Made by a program: the position numbers and the translations under genes. The notes under the pieces were generated by a model. It searched no databases. It saw only the letters and a list, made by a program, of their open reading frames with translations, and was not told the DNA's origin. Below, piece after piece: positions 13,707-18,815 of a DNA stretch of 27,642 nucleotides; positions within the stretch are counted from its first letter, which is position 1; every line of letters starts with the position of its first letter. Origin of the DNA: a virus (lineage: Duplodnaviria; Caudoviricetes); IMG/VR virus record IMGVR_UViG_3300020045_005617, positions 1-27,642 of that record. One strand, written 5' to 3'.

Positions 13707-14885
13707 TTAGATCAGTTGAGCTTTCTGCCCGGTATACTTTTCCCACCTGGCTACAATCACGTCGCAGTAGTGTGGGTCTAATTCCATTAATCTTGCGCTT
13801 CTATTTTCTGTTTCTGCGCCGATAAGCGTAGCCCCCGAGCCGCCGAAAAGGTCTAGAACAATTCCATTTTTAGGACATGAATTTCTAATTGTTCTTTTAC
13901 TTAATTCAACTGGTTTCTGTGTCGGGTGAAATTCATTTTTAGACTCCCTTTTTTCATCCCAAACGGATACTTCATTTGTTGGTCCATCCCAAAATGGAGA
14001 TTGGCCTTTCTTGTAAGCATACAAGCATGGTTCGTGTTTCTGCTTGTACTGCGCGCCAATTGCCCCAAATTGTGCCATGTTCTTATTCCAGATTAACCAA
14101 CTACGAATCTCATACCCATTATCTTGAAGCACTTGAAGCGATTTAGTTGCAGCAAACCACAAGTAAAGTGCCGCTTTAGGTTTCGAAAAATTAAACATCA
14201 TCGGTACAGAATCATTATAAATCAATGTACTATCATCATTGGCTAGTTTTTCCCTTCGGATACCTTTATCCGCATGACCGCCATCATAGCTAACGCCATA
14301 AGGCGGGTCAGTAAACACAAGGTCTGCTAATTCATAACGCATTGGCTTCTCAACGGCATCAATCGAAGTAGAGTCACCACACATCAGCCGATGATTCCCA
14401 AGTTGATAAATGTCGCCGAGCTTTGTTCTTGGCTCAACGCGCTCCGGCACATCGTCCTCGTCGCACATGGGTATGACGGTTGGCTCTAATACTAGATCAG
14501 GGATACCTAAATTCTCCAGATCGAAGTCATCTCCAAGGTTAGGGATTTCAGTATTGATCTTTGATCGATCTAGCTCGGCCTGTAGAGCAACTGCGTTATC
14601 CGCTACCACGTGGCTGTACTCCATCGCTGGGGAATCGAAGTCTTGAAAGTCTACGGCGATTGTTTCAGATCCAGCTAACTTCGCGGCCATCAATGTTCCG
14701 TGACCAGTAACTATAAACCCCGATTGATTTGAAATGATGATTGGTTTTCTTTGACCTTGGTAATTTAATATTTTAGCAAACTGCTCTAACTGCTTCGGTG
14801 AATGATCATTCGGGTTCTTTGGGTTCGGTATAATCTTTGGATCATTAATTTCTAAAAGATTGCTGTAGCTACATTTGATTTTCAT
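13707..14885 (-). CDS. ParB/Srx-like N-terminal domain fused to N6A/N4C DNA methyltransferase (beta order)
   Basis: PNPKNPNDH...IVTGHGTLMAAK ParB-like region; DPPY catalytic motif, HPTQKP and VLDLFGGSG SAM-binding motif. Confidence 0.9.
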   Translation of the reverse strand: MKIKCSYSNLLEINDPKIIPNPKNPNDHSPKQLEQFAKILNYQGQRKPIIISNQSGFIVTGHGTLMAAKLAGSETIAVDFQDFDSPAMEYSHVVADNAVALQAELDRSKINTEIPNLGDDFDLENLGIPDLVLEPTVIPMCDEDDVPERVEPRTKLGDIYQLGNHRLMCGDSTSIDAVEKPMRYELADLVFTDPPYGVSYDGGHADKGIRREKLANDDSTLIYNDSVPMMFNFSKPKAALYLWFAATKSLQVLQDNGYEIRSWLIWNKNMAQFGAIGAQYKQKHEPCLYAYKKGQSPFWDGPTNEVSVWDEKRESKNEFHPTQKPVELSKRTIRNSCPKNGIVLDLFGGSGATLIGAETENRSARLMELDPHYCDVIVARWEKYTGQKAQLI

Positions 14886-15030
14886 TTGGTCATAAGATTA
14901 TTAATTAAGAATTAAGTCAAAGAATCTTTCGGAAGTTATTATCATAACTATTTTCGGAAGAAGTAGGATTAATTAAACAAATGATAAATAGAAACTATGT
15001 AACCAGAGAGAACGGAGCGATGGCCAAGAG

Positions 15031-15460
15031 GTTTCTTATTCCCTGATTCTAAAAGTTTATAAAAATAAACTTCCCCTGTATTCGAATTAACGTTCTTACT
15101 CGTCCGAGTTTTATCAGCACTATGGCGTACTGGTTGAACTCGCTATCTCATCTTGTAACCACTTAAAAAGTGTACTATGATGATTCTCAGAGGCTTGGGT
15201 GCGATTGCGCGTTAACGCTTTCCGAGTGGAGGACGAGTTCATGTAAACCGTAATCTCCAGGCACTGCCTCTAAACTTTGTAACCGTCGGTCACATCGCTT
15301 CAGCCCATGCAATGATTAAGCCGAGTGGGTCGCCTAATCTGTGATCCAGAATCGTATTGATTCTTTTGCTTCCCGAGGAAGCCATTTCACCCGATGCCCG
15401 ATGAAACTTTCTGAGCTGCATGTCCCAGTCGAATCAGAATAGATCAAGATCGAAAGAAAC
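15031..15460 (-). ncRNA. Candidate large structured ncRNA (~430 nt), family unknown
   Basis: No ORF of 60 aa or more; 17-bp interrupted terminal helix (15031-15049 with 15431-15460) enclosing several hairpins; a G-U pair favours the minus strand. Confidence 0.6.
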
Positions 15461-15529
15461 TAAATAAAGCATTATTTTTTGAGTACATTGTCTAATAATA
15501 ACGTAATGAAACGTCGCGTCGTGGCGGGT

Positions 15530-15575
15530 AGCATCAAAATAAACGTTTACAAAGTCAAAGTTTTGTCATAGTCAT
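15530..15575. promoter_or_regulatory. Overlapping divergent promoter-like region
   Basis: Minus strand TTGACT(15558-15553)-N17-GATGCT; plus strand TTTACA at 15546 upstream of the exonuclease RBS. The -10 boxes are weak. Confidence 0.35.
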
Positions 15576-15594
15576 TCCTTATCGAAAGGAAATT

Positions 15595-16512
15595 ATGAAA
15601 AATCAAACATACAGATTAGTAGAACTAGAGCAAAATAGTCCGGCATGGCTAGAATTCAGAAAAGGCAAGATCGGGGGGTCGGACATTCCGATCATCGCTG
15701 AAGTCGATGGTGCTTATAAATCTAGGGCAGACCTCCTCCACGAAAAGATCACAGGTGAATCAAAGCCTGTTTCCGAGTTCACGCAGAAGCTCTTTCAAGA
15801 GGGTCACGACTGGGAGCCCATCATTCGCGATGAAGTGAATCATAAGTATGAGAAGCATTTTGTCCCGACCGTAGTTCAGTCAGTCGAATACCCGCACTTC
15901 TTTACATCACTAGATGGGTTCGACGAAGTCGATGGATCAATCCTAGAAGTCAAGACGACTCAGACCGATAAGATCACCGATCTAATCAAGACGGGAATAG
16001 TTCCTAAAAATTGGTACGCACAAGTTCAATGGCAGCTCTTCATCACGAATTCAACTATGGCGATGGTTGCCGCATTAGATATTAGAACAAAACATCTTCA
16101 CGATCCAATTAGGATTAATCGCGATGAAGTTTATATTGTTCTTTTGAAGGAAGCAGCTCAGAAATTCTACGAGGAAATGAGCACAGCGGTTTCCCCATAT
16201 CAACAACTTGAATCAATTGAGATGAGAACAATCGCATCGACGAAAGTTAATATAAAAGAATTCCAAAAGATGATCGATGATGCCGAAGACAAAATTAAAT
16301 TGATCGCGGAAGATCTTTTAAGGAAATATAAAGCGACAAAGATAGTAGGATGCGGAGTTCAAATTGAAACAATCAACCGTCAAGGGAATGTGGACTATTC
16401 AAAAATAGGAGTATTAAAAACGATAGATTTAGAAAAGTATCGTAAGAAAGGTTCGACTTACGTTAAAATAACCGAACTAAAACCATCGAAAGGAAAAATA
16501 GAAAATGAATAA
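15595..16512 (+). CDS. YqaJ-like viral recombinase exonuclease (lambda-Exo family)
   Basis: LEQNSPAWLEFRKGKIGGSD, GHDWEP, SLDG, ILEVKT, WYAQVQWQL motifs. Confidence 0.9.
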   Translation: MKNQTYRLVELEQNSPAWLEFRKGKIGGSDIPIIAEVDGAYKSRADLLHEKITGESKPVSEFTQKLFQEGHDWEPIIRDEVNHKYEKHFVPTVVQSVEYPHFFTSLDGFDEVDGSILEVKTTQTDKITDLIKTGIVPKNWYAQVQWQLFITNSTMAMVAALDIRTKHLHDPIRINRDEVYIVLLKEAAQKFYEEMSTAVSPYQQLESIEMRTIASTKVNIKEFQKMIDDAEDKIKLIAEDLLRKYKATKIVGCGVQIETINRQGNVDYSKIGVLKTIDLEKYRKKGSTYVKITELKPSKGKIENE

Positions 16513-17347
16513 TCAGCAGGTATCAATTATAGAACAGGTAATGATTAAGGGAGACTTATCAGTCTTAGACCCAGGGCAAAGGGTACAATATTATAATGCA
16601 GTTTGCGACTCAGTAGGATTAAATCCTTTAACGAAACCATTCGACTATATCGTACTAGGTGGAAAGTTAGTCCTTTACGCGAATAAAGGAGCTGGTGAGC
16701 AGCTTAGACAGCGACACGGTATTTCGTTAAAGATAACCGATAAACAAAAGATCGACGACGTTTATGTAGTTACCGCCGAGGCAGTAGGAAAAGATGGGCG
16801 GGTTGACTCCGCTACAGGAGCCGTATCCGTCGCAGGATTAAAGGGTGAGCAGTTAGCTAACGCTTTTATGAAAACAGAAACAAAAGCGAAACGTCGAGTC
16901 ACGCTTTCAATATGTGGATTAAATATGCTCGACGAAACTGAAGTAGAAAACATAGGAGAAAAACAGAATGAAAAAAAGCAAATCGCAAACGCAAGTACCA
17001 CCAAGCTTAGTGTCGATACACCAGGGGCTTTACAAAGCGGCCAAACAGGTGGAGCAAGACCTGAGAGTAGCAATCACGTTATCGACGAACCAGAAACAGC
17101 AGCAGATACTACTAACAACCTATCTAACGGTGACACAAATCCATGTAGCGCTGGCAGCACTATTGGTAGTTACAGAATCCCGTTTGGAAACAACAAAGGC
17201 CAAACCCTCATCGAAGCGGGTTACGAAGCGGTTTGTAGTACCTACGACTGGCTTAAAGGTGAGGAAGAAAAAGGTAAACCACTCAAGGGCGCTGGCCTAG
17301 AGTTTATCAAGCAAGCGGAACTTTGTTTTCCGCATATTAAGAATTAA
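16505..17347 (+). CDS. Single-strand annealing protein (RecT/Bet-like)
   Basis: GLNPLTKPF...ANAFMKTETKAKRRVTLSICGL; paired with YqaJ; C-terminal IPFGNNKGQTL motif. Confidence 0.75.
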   Translation: MNNQQVSIIEQVMIKGDLSVLDPGQRVQYYNAVCDSVGLNPLTKPFDYIVLGGKLVLYANKGAGEQLRQRHGISLKITDKQKIDDVYVVTAEAVGKDGRVDSATGAVSVAGLKGEQLANAFMKTETKAKRRVTLSICGLNMLDETEVENIGEKQNEKKQIANASTTKLSVDTPGALQSGQTGGARPESSNHVIDEPETAADTTNNLSNGDTNPCSAGSTIGSYRIPFGNNKGQTLIEAGYEAVCSTYDWLKGEEEKGKPLKGAGLEFIKQAELCFPHIKN

Positions 17348-17354
17348 TAAACTT

Positions 17355-17400
17355 TCGACTATTGGCATTCTATTTTATAGATTTCCTTTCGAGTAGTCGA
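17355..17400 (+). promoter_or_regulatory. Hairpin with loop antisense to the recombination-gene RBSs
   Basis: Stem TCGACTAT/GTAGTCGA; ATTTCCTTTCGA (17381-17392) is the reverse complement of 15582-15593. Confidence 0.55.
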
Positions 17401-17406
17401 TCATTG

Positions 17407-17443
17407 GGTCGGGCAATTACTCCAGTTCTTGCTCGACCTTTTT
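17407..17443 (+). terminator. Intrinsic terminator
   Basis: GGTCGGGCAA/TTGCTCGACC 10-bp stem (one G-U) followed by T5. Confidence 0.75.
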
Positions 17444-17458
17444 ATAAAGGAGAATGAA

Positions 17459-17596
17459 ATGGAAAAGTCACCGTATCAAATTGCATTGAACCATCTTGAA
17501 GATCTTTTAAATATTCTTACTGACTGTGGCTGTGAGGACTTAGACGCTGAAAAGTTTTTAATAAAAGCTCGCGAGGCGATGGAAGCTCATGGCTGA
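17459..17596 (+). CDS. Small 45-aa protein (not in ORF track)
   Basis: AAGGAG RBS; MEKSPYQIALNHLEDLLNILTDCGCEDLDAEKFLIKAREAMEAHG*. Confidence 0.65.
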   Translation: MEKSPYQIALNHLEDLLNILTDCGCEDLDAEKFLIKAREAMEAHG

Positions 17597-17705
17597 AGTA
17601 CTAGAATTATTAGGAATGGGTATGGCAATTCTAGGACTTGGGTTGCTATCTCTTTTAACTATAGGATTGACCGTGAGGTTCTTCACAGAGGATAAATGGC
17701 GATGA
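17589..17705 (+). CDS. 38-aa single-TM peptide (not in ORF track)
   Basis: MAEVLELLGMGMAILGLGLLSLLTIGLTVRFFTEDKWR*; overlaps both neighbours. Confidence 0.55.
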   Translation: MAEVLELLGMGMAILGLGLLSLLTIGLTVRFFTEDKWR

Positions 17706-17935
17706 TCCGTCAAACCAGCATCGACGCGTATCGAAAGATCGAAGCGGAAGGCCTTCTCAGTAAAAGACGATGGCAGGTCTACGATATTTTATATGAGTTC
17801 GGGCCAATGACTGGCGGGGAATGTTTCGCTAAGCTTATAGAGAAGCATAAATTTCAATTCCCAACAAATTCTAACGTGACCACACGACTCGGTGAACTTA
17901 GAGGCCTTGGGTGCGCGATGGAAAAACGTAAATAG
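17696..17935 (+). CDS. Winged-helix-like DNA-binding protein, possibly C-terminally truncated
   Basis: TSIDAY...RRWQVYDILYEFGPMTGGE...NVTTRLGELRGLG; stops inside a 26-nt repeat. Confidence 0.6.
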   Translation: MAMIRQTSIDAYRKIEAEGLLSKRRWQVYDILYEFGPMTGGECFAKLIEKHKFQFPTNSNVTTRLGELRGLGCAMEKRK

Positions 17936-17938
17936 AGA
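17913..17938 (+). repeat. 26-nt direct repeat, copy 1
   Basis: GCGCgATGGAAAAACGTAAATAGAGA; copy 2 at 18585-18610 has one mismatch. Confidence 0.9.
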
Positions 17939-18546: not shown

Positions 18547-18815
18547 GTTATGTCGAACAGTCGCAAGAAGTAGCCATTAATGAAGCGCAATGGAAAAACG
18601 TAAATAGAGAGCTGTCAGAAGCGAGGGAAGTTATTAAATTTTATGCTGATAAAAAAAACTGGGATGAAGGTTGTTGTGGGCTTTACAAAGTAAATGCTGT
18701 TACACATGGTTCTGATATAGAAGATTTTGCTCCCGGTTATTTCGGCAATAAGTTCGGCGGAAAAATTGCAAGAGATTTTTTAAAGAAAACAATGCAAGGG
18801 GAAAATCATGAGTGA
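18543..18815 (+). CDS. Hypothetical protein
   Basis: GGAGG RBS; EVIKFYAD...GGKIARDFL pattern of small phage early proteins. Confidence 0.65.
   Translation: MSYVEQSQEVAINEAQWKNVNRELSEAREVIKFYADKKNWDEGCCGLYKVNAVTHGSDIEDFAPGYFGNKFGGKIARDFLKKTMQGENHE
18585..18610 (+). repeat. 26-nt direct repeat, copy 2
   Basis: GCGCaATGGAAAAACGTAAATAGAGA. Confidence 0.9.

What the first reader, a model, noticed from the sequence alone, without database searches (positions are those of the whole stretch)
17355..17443. 3' hairpin whose loop is antisense to the ribosome-binding sites of both recombination genes
Seen: both the exonuclease (15581-15592) and the annealase (16485-16496) are preceded by the same ATCGAAAGGAAA. 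Just after the annealase stop, a stem (TCGACTAT/GTAGTCGA) displays ATTTCCTTTCGA (17381-17392). This is a perfect 12-nt complement to the exonuclease RBS and an 11-nt complement to the annealase RBS. The loop also has TTCTATTTT, complementary to the annealase spacer AAAATAGAA. The next (terminator) hairpin loop carries another anti-SD, CTCC. Inference: a 3'UTR-derived sRNA or long-range fold-back that shuts off recombinase translation once the transcript is complete.
Basis: partly seen in the sequence, partly recalled or inferred. Interest (0 to 1): 0.7.

Follow-up and report, generated by a model that had tools for sequence, protein, structure and literature searches.

The report
Phage anti-RBS RNA after recombination genes
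Right after an exonuclease gene and a likely annealase gene, this phage carries a predicted RNA hairpin with the exact complement of both genes' ribosome-landing sites, and in related phages the two sequences change together, so it likely acts as a small RNA that turns down translation of these and other, probably early, genes.

Summary
17381-17392 is the exact complement of the exonuclease RBS (12 nt) and the annealase RBS (11 nt); these starts rank 1 and 2 of 293 ATG starts. Of 10 related exo-annealase contigs with an intact 3' end, 8 carry an 8-12-nt complement of their own, differently lettered RBS within 60 nt of the annealase stop. Own-versus-other pairing ranks first of 40,320 permutations, one miss included. 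In 3 lineages the same extended RBS also fronts opposite-strand genes, which favours a trans-acting RNA over fold-back. Best reading: an OppZ/CarZ-like 3'-end small RNA that likely represses a set of early genes sharing a private RBS. No RNA data; 5' end, host and sign of the effect are untested. Cluster K1 mycobacteriophages show the same layout for their unexplained Start-Associated Sequences, but the loop is exact in only 3 of 9 cluster K phages aligned. This scan has noted the same kind of element in other phage genomes.

The parts
15560..15602 (+). Predicted local hairpin that buries the exonuclease RBS and ATG in transcripts starting upstream of about 15575
   Evidence: Fold -10.3 kcal/mol. 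A similar hairpin in L113; none in L114, L228, L229, L225, L222, L224.
15564..15572 (+). Possible extended -10 box (TGtCATAGT), which would put the start near 15580 and leave the RBS open
   Evidence: Read from the sequence; inference only; not listed by the promoter scan.
15581..15593 (+). Target 1: extended RBS of the exonuclease gene
   Evidence: 12-nt exact complement to the seed; rank 1 of 293 ATG starts; cofold gain -8.9 kcal/mol for a leader from 15581, only -2.1 for a leader from 15560.
15595..16512 (+). YqaJ / RecE-like 5'-3' exonuclease, 305 aa
   Evidence: PF09588 E 3e-16; phrog_434 E 3e-40.
16485..16503 (+). Target 2: extended RBS and spacer of the annealase gene, inside the last codons of the exonuclease
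   Evidence: 11-nt exact complement; rank 2 of 293; cofold gain -9.8 kcal/mol.
16505..17347 (+). Likely single-strand annealing protein, 280 aa, of a family without a curated profile
   Evidence: No Pfam, PHROG, NCBIfam or PDB match. Relatives carry RecT (4 of 8 annealase-slot proteins scanned) or ERF (1 of 8) domains in the same slot with the same C-terminal domain. Weak RecT profile match (E 0.002, probability 12%). Atlas lead to a cluster with Rad52_Rad22 on 20% of members.
17355..17400 (+). Hairpin 1, predicted to display the anti-RBS seed
17381..17392 (+). Anti-RBS seed ATTTCCTTTCGA
   Evidence: 8 of 12 bases predicted unpaired.
17406..17443 (+). Hairpin 2 with U-tract: likely terminator or 3'-end stabiliser
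   Evidence: A strong second hairpin in all 10 loci folded; a U-tract in 4 of 7 lineages.
17446..17461 (+). RBS and start of the next gene (45 aa); a possible alternative partner of hairpin 1 in read-through transcripts
   Evidence: Pairs in the MFE of the longer region; 10th of 11,028 windows by duplex energy.

Best explanation
The 3' end of the exonuclease-annealase operon holds a predicted two-hairpin RNA whose first hairpin carries the exact complement of an extended ribosome-binding site shared by both genes, and it likely acts in trans as a small RNA that would block ribosome loading on these and on other, probably early, genes marked with the same site. Shown: the complementarity, its lineage-specific covariation, its fixed place after the annealase stop, and extra target copies on the opposite strand in relatives. 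Inferred: (1) the RNA is released from the operon transcript, by cleavage near the stop codon or by decay, since no conserved internal promoter is visible by eye; (2) hairpin 2 ends or protects it; (3) the seed pairs over the Shine-Dalgarno core and its flanks and stops initiation; (4) because the RNA is made from the operon it controls, it forms a delayed negative feedback that limits exonuclease/annealase output and winds down co-marked genes. The flanks beyond the AGGA core would give specificity for the phage's own messages over host messages.
For: Window: exact 12/11-nt matches, ranks 1 and 2 of 293 starts; 0 of 1000 shuffles; fold z -5.9. Relatives (exo/annealase match length): L113 10/7, L114 9/9, L055 5/8, L228 10/9, L229 9/8, L225 8/9, L222 12/11, L224 12/11, with letters that differ between lineages. 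Permutation of own versus other 3' regions: 1 of 5,040 (7 lineages) and 1 of 720 without the window; 1 of 40,320 with the miss L304 included. L222, L224, L225, L228 and L229 were fetched after the pattern had been written down. The element stays while the annealase domain in front of it changes among window-type, RecT and ERF. Motif census: L224 5 sense copies, all before ATG, plus 1 antisense copy; L222 3 + 1; L228 4 + 1. Opposite-strand targets in G008/L224, G002/L225 (also G009/L226) and G003/L228. The + strand folds better than the - strand in 8 of 10 loci. No ATG within 25 nt after the antisense copy on the - strand in the 9 relatives folded (the cursor was misplaced for L002 and 2 nt off for L228; one search shows the same for the true copies of both over 14 nt). 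L230, an exonuclease not followed by an annealase, shows no such element by eye. Precedent: OppZ/CarZ (PMC7398697, passages).
Against: No transcript evidence of any kind. L304 (complete genome; 3 genes share an extended RBS) has no complement after the annealase (5/5); a search of its coding strand for three 7-nt pieces found one hit, about 10 kb away and not examined further, so a shared RBS can exist without the element. L002 matches exo/annealase at only 5/5 (8 nt to the RBS of an inserted HNH gene), and L055 matches the exonuclease at 5. No excess of G-U pairs between seed and targets: 2 of 28 flanking positions, so the seed-target match alone does not tell RNA from DNA. No U-tract in 3 of 7 lineages. 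Seeds are only partly exposed (mean P unpaired 0.51-0.87 in 9 loci). The - strand folds better in L222/L224. In the window only two targets are seen, both on the same mRNA. By raw duplex energy two coding-region sites (391, 22046) outrank the RBSs. If transcription starts upstream of about 15575 the exonuclease RBS is already buried and the gain falls to -2.1 kcal/mol.
Confidence: 0.6

Rival explanations
1. Cis fold-back only (icaR-like): the 3' hairpin of the finished mRNA pairs back onto one of its own RBSs, so each message is translated mainly while it is being made.
For: The element always sits at the 3' end of the operon it matches; in the window both targets are on that mRNA. No conserved promoter is seen by eye. 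Precedent icaR (PMC3868564, abstract).
Against: One seed, two or three targets per operon; copies before opposite-strand genes in 3 lineages cannot be reached in cis.
Confidence: 0.17
2. A DNA- or RNA-level protein site (operator or stoperator-like) repeated at early genes, with one inverted copy; no RNA-RNA pairing.
For: Seed-target matches are pure Watson-Crick with no G-U excess (2 of 28). A weak - strand promoter-like site spans the hairpin (17400-17372). Motif repeats would look the same on DNA.
Against: Sense copies sit on the Shine-Dalgarno position just before ATG; the single inverted copy lies in a predicted hairpin whose stems differ between lineages and fold better on the + strand in 8 of 10 loci. 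A protein would have to change specificity in every lineage. Promoter-like sites are fewer than chance here (7 against 12.2).
Confidence: 0.1
3. The pairing is real but activates or processes rather than represses: for example it guides RNase cleavage, opens the local hairpin over the exonuclease RBS, or couples read-through to the next gene's RBS.
For: The window and L113 have a local hairpin over the exonuclease RBS; hairpin 1 can pair with the next RBS at 17446.
Against: The seed covers the Shine-Dalgarno core itself, which would compete with the 16S tail (established for antisense RNAs); the local hairpin is absent in 6 other loci.
Confidence: 0.08
4. Short inverted repeats made or used by the phage's own recombination system (cassette shuffling or inversion), with no regulatory role.
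For: The repeats bracket a recombination cassette whose annealase domain is often swapped; L002 gained an HNH gene at one repeat.
Against: The cassette has the same orientation relative to the repeats in all 10 loci with the element; no tyrosine recombinase (PF00589) in 0 of 5 records (serine recombinases not searched); hairpin 1 straddles the repeat.
Confidence: 0.03
5. Chance: two strong Shine-Dalgarno sites and a pyrimidine-rich 3' region.
For: About 7 distinct triple 11-mer families occur in the window; L304 lacks the match.
Against: Own-versus-other permutation 1 of 40,320, which controls for a generic SD/anti-SD match.
Confidence: 0.02

Closest known systems
OppZ and CarZ, autoregulatory 3'UTR-derived sRNAs of Vibrio cholerae (PMC7398697; abstract and passages read)
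   Same: RNA at the 3' end of an operon that pairs with a translation start region of the same operon; negative feedback.
   Different: Here in a phage; one seed matches 2 to 5 start sites that share a private extended RBS, some on the other strand; seed and targets covary between lineages. RNase E processing and Hfq binding are untested.
C4 antisense RNA of phages P1/P7 (PMC8198154, passages; processing and loop details recalled) and P4 CI RNA (recalled)
   Same: Phage RNA encoded in the operon it represses; short stretches pair with targets; specificity differs between related phages (recalled).
   Different: No Rfam match. C4 lies at the 5' end of an antirepressor operon of a temperate phage; this element lies at the 3' end of a recombination operon, and no PF00589 integrase was found in 5 records.
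icaR 3'UTR-SD pairing of Staphylococcus aureus (PMC3868564; abstract and outline)
   Same: An anti-SD motif in the 3' UTR pairs with the SD of the same transcript.
   Different: icaR has one target and a 7-nt motif; here the match extends beyond the SD core and reaches genes on other transcripts in relatives.
Start-Associated Sequences (SAS) of cluster K mycobacteriophages and cluster EF Microbacterium phages (PMC3203893 passages and Fig. S3 text; PMC11373665 passages; PMC7302621 passages)
   Same: Over-conserved extended RBS before many non-structural genes, role stated as unknown. Four K1 phages have one reverse copy; in Adephagia it lies in the 10-nt loop of a predicted hairpin (z -3.3) between genes 92 and 93, where late transcription appears to start.
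   Different: Different sequence and no homology shown. The loop is exact in 3 of 9 cluster K phages aligned, altered in 3 and absent or unrelated in 3. In Ekdilam and Cain the loop changed while the SAS did not. No reverse copy with 2 or fewer mismatches in 32.7 of 56.7 kb of AnnaSerena. No ESAS-like repeats were sought here.

Membership tests
Autoregulatory 3'UTR-derived sRNA (OppZ/CarZ kind) | Encoded at the 3' end of an operon, after the last stop codon | tested here: met
   Within 60 nt of the annealase stop in the window and 8 of 10 relatives.
Autoregulatory 3'UTR-derived sRNA (OppZ/CarZ kind) | Complementary to a translation start region of its own operon | tested here: met
Autoregulatory 3'UTR-derived sRNA (OppZ/CarZ kind) | Ends in an intrinsic terminator shared with the mRNA | tested here: inconclusive
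   Second hairpin in 10 of 10 loci, U-tract in 4 of 7 lineages; not listed by the terminator scan.
Autoregulatory 3'UTR-derived sRNA (OppZ/CarZ kind) | Accumulates as a discrete RNA after RNase E cleavage; binds Hfq | not testable with these tools
   Needs RNA data from an infection.
Autoregulatory 3'UTR-derived sRNA (OppZ/CarZ kind) | Represses translation; rescued by compensatory changes | not testable with these tools
   Natural compensatory changes seen; repression not measured.
C4 antisense RNA (Rfam) | Matches the C4 covariance model | tested here: not met
   0 matches at gathering score in the window; only a chance match, E 2.7, in 14800-17800.
C4 antisense RNA (Rfam) | Lies before an icd/antirepressor operon | tested here: not met
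   Lies after an exonuclease-annealase pair; the next ORFs match no antirepressor family.
icaR-type cis 5'-3' pairing | Target confined to the same transcript | tested here: inconclusive
   True of the window; not of L224, L225/L226, L228, which have opposite-strand copies.
Start-Associated Sequences (SAS) | Conserved 10-13-nt motif at the RBS position, extending beyond 16S pairing, before several non-structural genes | tested here: met
   2 copies in the window, 2-5 per relative; far fewer than the 11-19 of cluster K.
Start-Associated Sequences (SAS) | Cluster K consensus sequence and ESAS inverted repeats | tested here: not met
   The motifs differ from the cluster K consensus; ESAS not sought.
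Single-strand annealing protein (RecT/ERF/Rad52 superfamily), gene 16505-17347 | Profile or fold match to a known annealase | tested here: inconclusive
   No profile match; weak RecT match; Atlas Rad52 lead; occupies the slot of RecT/ERF in relatives; no model could be folded.

The most novel reading that the evidence does not exclude
Many phages address a whole set of early genes with a private extended RBS and carry one small RNA with its complement, made from the end of an early operon or the start of the late one. That RNA is a protein-free master off-switch (and possibly a lineage-specific superinfection block), and it is the missing partner of the Start-Associated Sequences, unexplained since 2011 and testable in Adephagia.
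Probability: 0.3. Interest if true: 0.85.

Novelty: new variant of a known kind. Interest (0 to 1): 0.68.

Why it matters
Exonuclease-annealase pairs (lambda Red and RecET kind) are potent and usually tightly timed. An RNA that closes their translation from the end of their own message would be a protein-free timer, and would be the first such control of a phage recombination module that my searches could find. The natural series of seed/RBS pairs gives ready-made compensatory tests and possibly orthogonal RBS-repressor parts. The parallel with cluster K1 mycobacteriophages turns an open question (what SAS motifs bind) into one reporter experiment in a laboratory host.

Tried and rejected
Sequencing runs: none was listed, so no reads were laid; this says nothing on expression. 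Structure prediction of the annealase could not be run, so its fold is open. Exact DNA search for the hairpin in viral contigs: 0. Single-protein locus searches found only one distant locus; GTDB gave no member of the close exonuclease clade; GenBank phages gave only distant relatives (phi1422 and a Campylobacter phage fetched and not analysed further), so the host stays unknown. Rfam: nothing. Antisense small ORF: a 23-codon - strand ORF starts at 17368, but relatives have no ATG after the antisense copy; rejected. CTCC as a second anti-SD: not conserved; rejected. G-U enrichment as RNA evidence: not found. Covariation of SAS and loop in cluster K: not found. Script faults: the L304 exonuclease rows were empty and are discarded (redone); the 3' cut for L114 was too short and the seed cursor was off for L228 and L002. 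I did not build a covariance model: the elements are too unlike to align. Literature searches with no hit; one search listed 7 papers, none on this element by title or abstract start. Most subscription papers are not in the library, and bioRxiv supplements are closed, so a prior description cannot be excluded.

Full report
Setting. The window is a 27,642-base phage record (terminase, Mu-like portal and protease; G000 is the window itself; CheckV estimate 32% complete, although close relatives are only 30-34 kb). The finding lies after a gene pair that starts a rightward block: a YqaJ/RecE-like exonuclease (15595-16512; PF09588, phrog_434) and a 280-aa gene (16505-17347) with no Pfam, PHROG, NCBIfam or PDB match. 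That gene is likely an annealase: relatives put RecT (4 of 8 proteins scanned from this slot) or ERF (1 of 8) domains there, fused to the same C-terminal domain; hhalign to a small RecT alignment is weak (E 0.002, probability 12%); the Atlas points to a cluster with Rad52_Rad22 on 20% of members. The host is unknown.

The observation. All letters and coordinates check. The 11-mer occurs three times: before each of the two genes and once, inverted, at 17382-17392. Triple 11-mers are not rare in this window, but the placement is: 0 of 1000 shuffles of the 60 nt after the stop and 0 of 632 other windows of the locus reach the summed match of 23, and the two starts rank first and second of 293 ATG starts on both strands. 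17348-17445 folds into two hairpins (z -5.9) with 8 of 12 seed bases unpaired. By duplex energy alone, without accessibility, two coding-region sites outrank the RBSs among 11,028 windows.

Relatives. Protein-seeded scans gave about 390 loci. I did not test them all. I took the close exonuclease clade (profile score 280 or more): 12 contigs besides the window. One is cut before the annealase ends (L226) and one has no annealase after the exonuclease (L230; no element by eye). Of the other 10, eight have an exact 8-12-nt complement of their own exonuclease and/or annealase RBS within 60 nt of the annealase stop: L113 10/7, L114 9/9, L055 5/8, L228 10/9, L229 9/8, L225 8/9, L222 12/11, L224 12/11. 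The letters outside the AGGA core differ between lineages (for example AGGAAACTAC, GGAAACGAC, AGGAAACCGC, GAAAGGAACCAC, GGGACGAA) and the 3' element follows them. The two misses are L002 (5/5; an HNH gene was inserted and took the matching RBS, 8 nt) and L304 (5/5; three genes share an extended RBS but no complement follows the annealase). [quoted passage not shown] Three more distant loci score 6, 7 and 6 for the annealase RBS (L019, L107, L167). With one contig per lineage, the own pairing ranks first of 5,040 permutations (7 lineages), first of 720 without the window, and first of 40,320 with L304 included. This test controls for a generic SD/anti-SD match. Five of the positive contigs were fetched after the pattern was noted.

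Cis or trans. In whole or partial records the extended RBS is a label on several genes. L224 has five sense copies, all before an ATG, two of them on the opposite strand, plus the one antisense copy; L225 has two opposite-strand copies, L226 one, L228 two (one of them weaker); L222 has three same-strand copies; L055/L002 show none on the other strand; L113 and L114 are 4-kb contigs. Opposite-strand genes cannot be on the same mRNA, so at least there the element would have to act in trans. The window shows only the two operon targets.

RNA or DNA. The element is two hairpins in all 10 loci folded; the + strand folds better in 8 of 10, and the seed is half or more exposed in 9. L228 and L229 differ by changes on both sides of the second stem. 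Against this, seed-target pairs show no excess of G-U (2 of 28 flanking positions), and a U-tract follows hairpin 2 in only 4 of 7 lineages. A protein-binding-site reading is therefore weakened, not excluded. No promoter is conserved by eye at the annealase end. No sequencing run was listed.

Mechanism. I commit to a 3'-end small RNA, released from the operon transcript, that pairs over the SD and its flanks and lowers translation of the exonuclease, the annealase and co-labelled genes: a delayed negative feedback (0.6). Predicted gains are -8.9 and -9.8 kcal/mol for the two leaders. In the window and L113 a local hairpin buries the exonuclease RBS in longer leaders; it may guard against read-through expression, and it removes most of the gain if transcription starts upstream. 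No PF00589 integrase was found in 5 records, 3 of them at least 90% complete, which fits a lytic timer better than lysogenic immunity but does not prove it. Release, timing and repression are all inferred.

What is known. It works like OppZ/CarZ (PMC7398697, abstract and passages), and resembles icaR (PMC3868564, abstract) and P1 C4 RNA (PMC8198154, passages), but matches no Rfam family. Parts 1-2 of 6 of a review of phage sRNAs (PMC12197685) list none that targets a recombination module. Searches returned nothing. The target side resembles Start-Associated Sequences, whose role is stated as unknown (PMC3203893, PMC11373665, PMC7302621; passages). PMC3203893 notes one reverse copy in four K1 phages (text and Fig. 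S3). In Adephagia that copy lies in the loop of a predicted hairpin in the gap where late transcription appears to begin. The parallel is partial: exact loop in 3 of 9 cluster K phages aligned, altered in 3, absent or unrelated in 3 (9 of 166 matching records); the SAS did not change where the loop did; and no good reverse copy in the 58% of AnnaSerena scanned.

Earlier notes of this scan. One search lists eight findings of a similar kind on other genomes, two naming SAS; none by place or by the exonuclease sequence. I reached the trans reading and the SAS link before seeing them, did not check their DNA, and do not count them as support.

Verdict. A real, covarying anti-RBS element at the end of a phage recombination operon; a new variant of 3'-end autoregulatory RNAs, with a likely multi-gene reach. 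Interest 0.68.

Noticed in passing
window 17918-17937 and 18590-18609: A direct repeat of about 20 nt (ATGGAAAAACGTAAATAGAGA) 672 bases apart, bracketing the dATP/dGTP diphosphohydrolase gene region; the longest non-simple repeat in the window; possibly a scar of a recombination event.
   Followed up: no
window 14886-15594: About 700 bases between divergent gene blocks with no long ORF; holds a near-copy of the RBS motif at 15449-15459 with no ATG after it. No Rfam match.
   Followed up: partly
L055, L002, L222, L225, L228, L229, L113, L114 (annealase slot): The same exonuclease clade and the same ~65-aa C-terminal domain are paired with at least four different N-terminal domains (window-type, RecT, ERF, and an unassigned one in L228/L107): domain swapping within one slot. 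L002 and L055 are near-identical around it yet carry different annealase domains.
   Followed up: partly
window 16505-17347 and P0002-P0120: The window's annealase-slot family is large (7,154 hits among 8,000 candidates) yet has no Pfam, PHROG or NCBIfam model; a likely uncurated annealase family.
   Followed up: partly
L002 2046-2504: An HNH endonuclease gene inserted between exonuclease and annealase takes over the annealase's RBS, and with it the match to the 3' element.
   Followed up: partly
L408 2164-2215 (Adephagia about 58,663-58,714): The single reverse SAS of Adephagia is displayed in a hairpin loop inside a longer structured intergenic stretch conserved in 166 phage records, often annotated as nothing or as a hypothetical gene; a candidate late non-coding RNA.
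   Followed up: partly
G002, G008, G009 upstream of opposite-strand target genes: TTGACA is followed 11 nt later by CAT(A/G)GG in three leaders, an odd spacing for a sigma-70 promoter.
   Followed up: no
G006 / L304: Three consecutive genes share an extended RBS but no complement follows the annealase; the partner may be lost, imperfect or elsewhere.
   Followed up: partly
window 13707-14885 (-): ParB-like domain fused to an N6/N4 DNA methyltransferase, transcribed away from the recombination genes.
   Followed up: no
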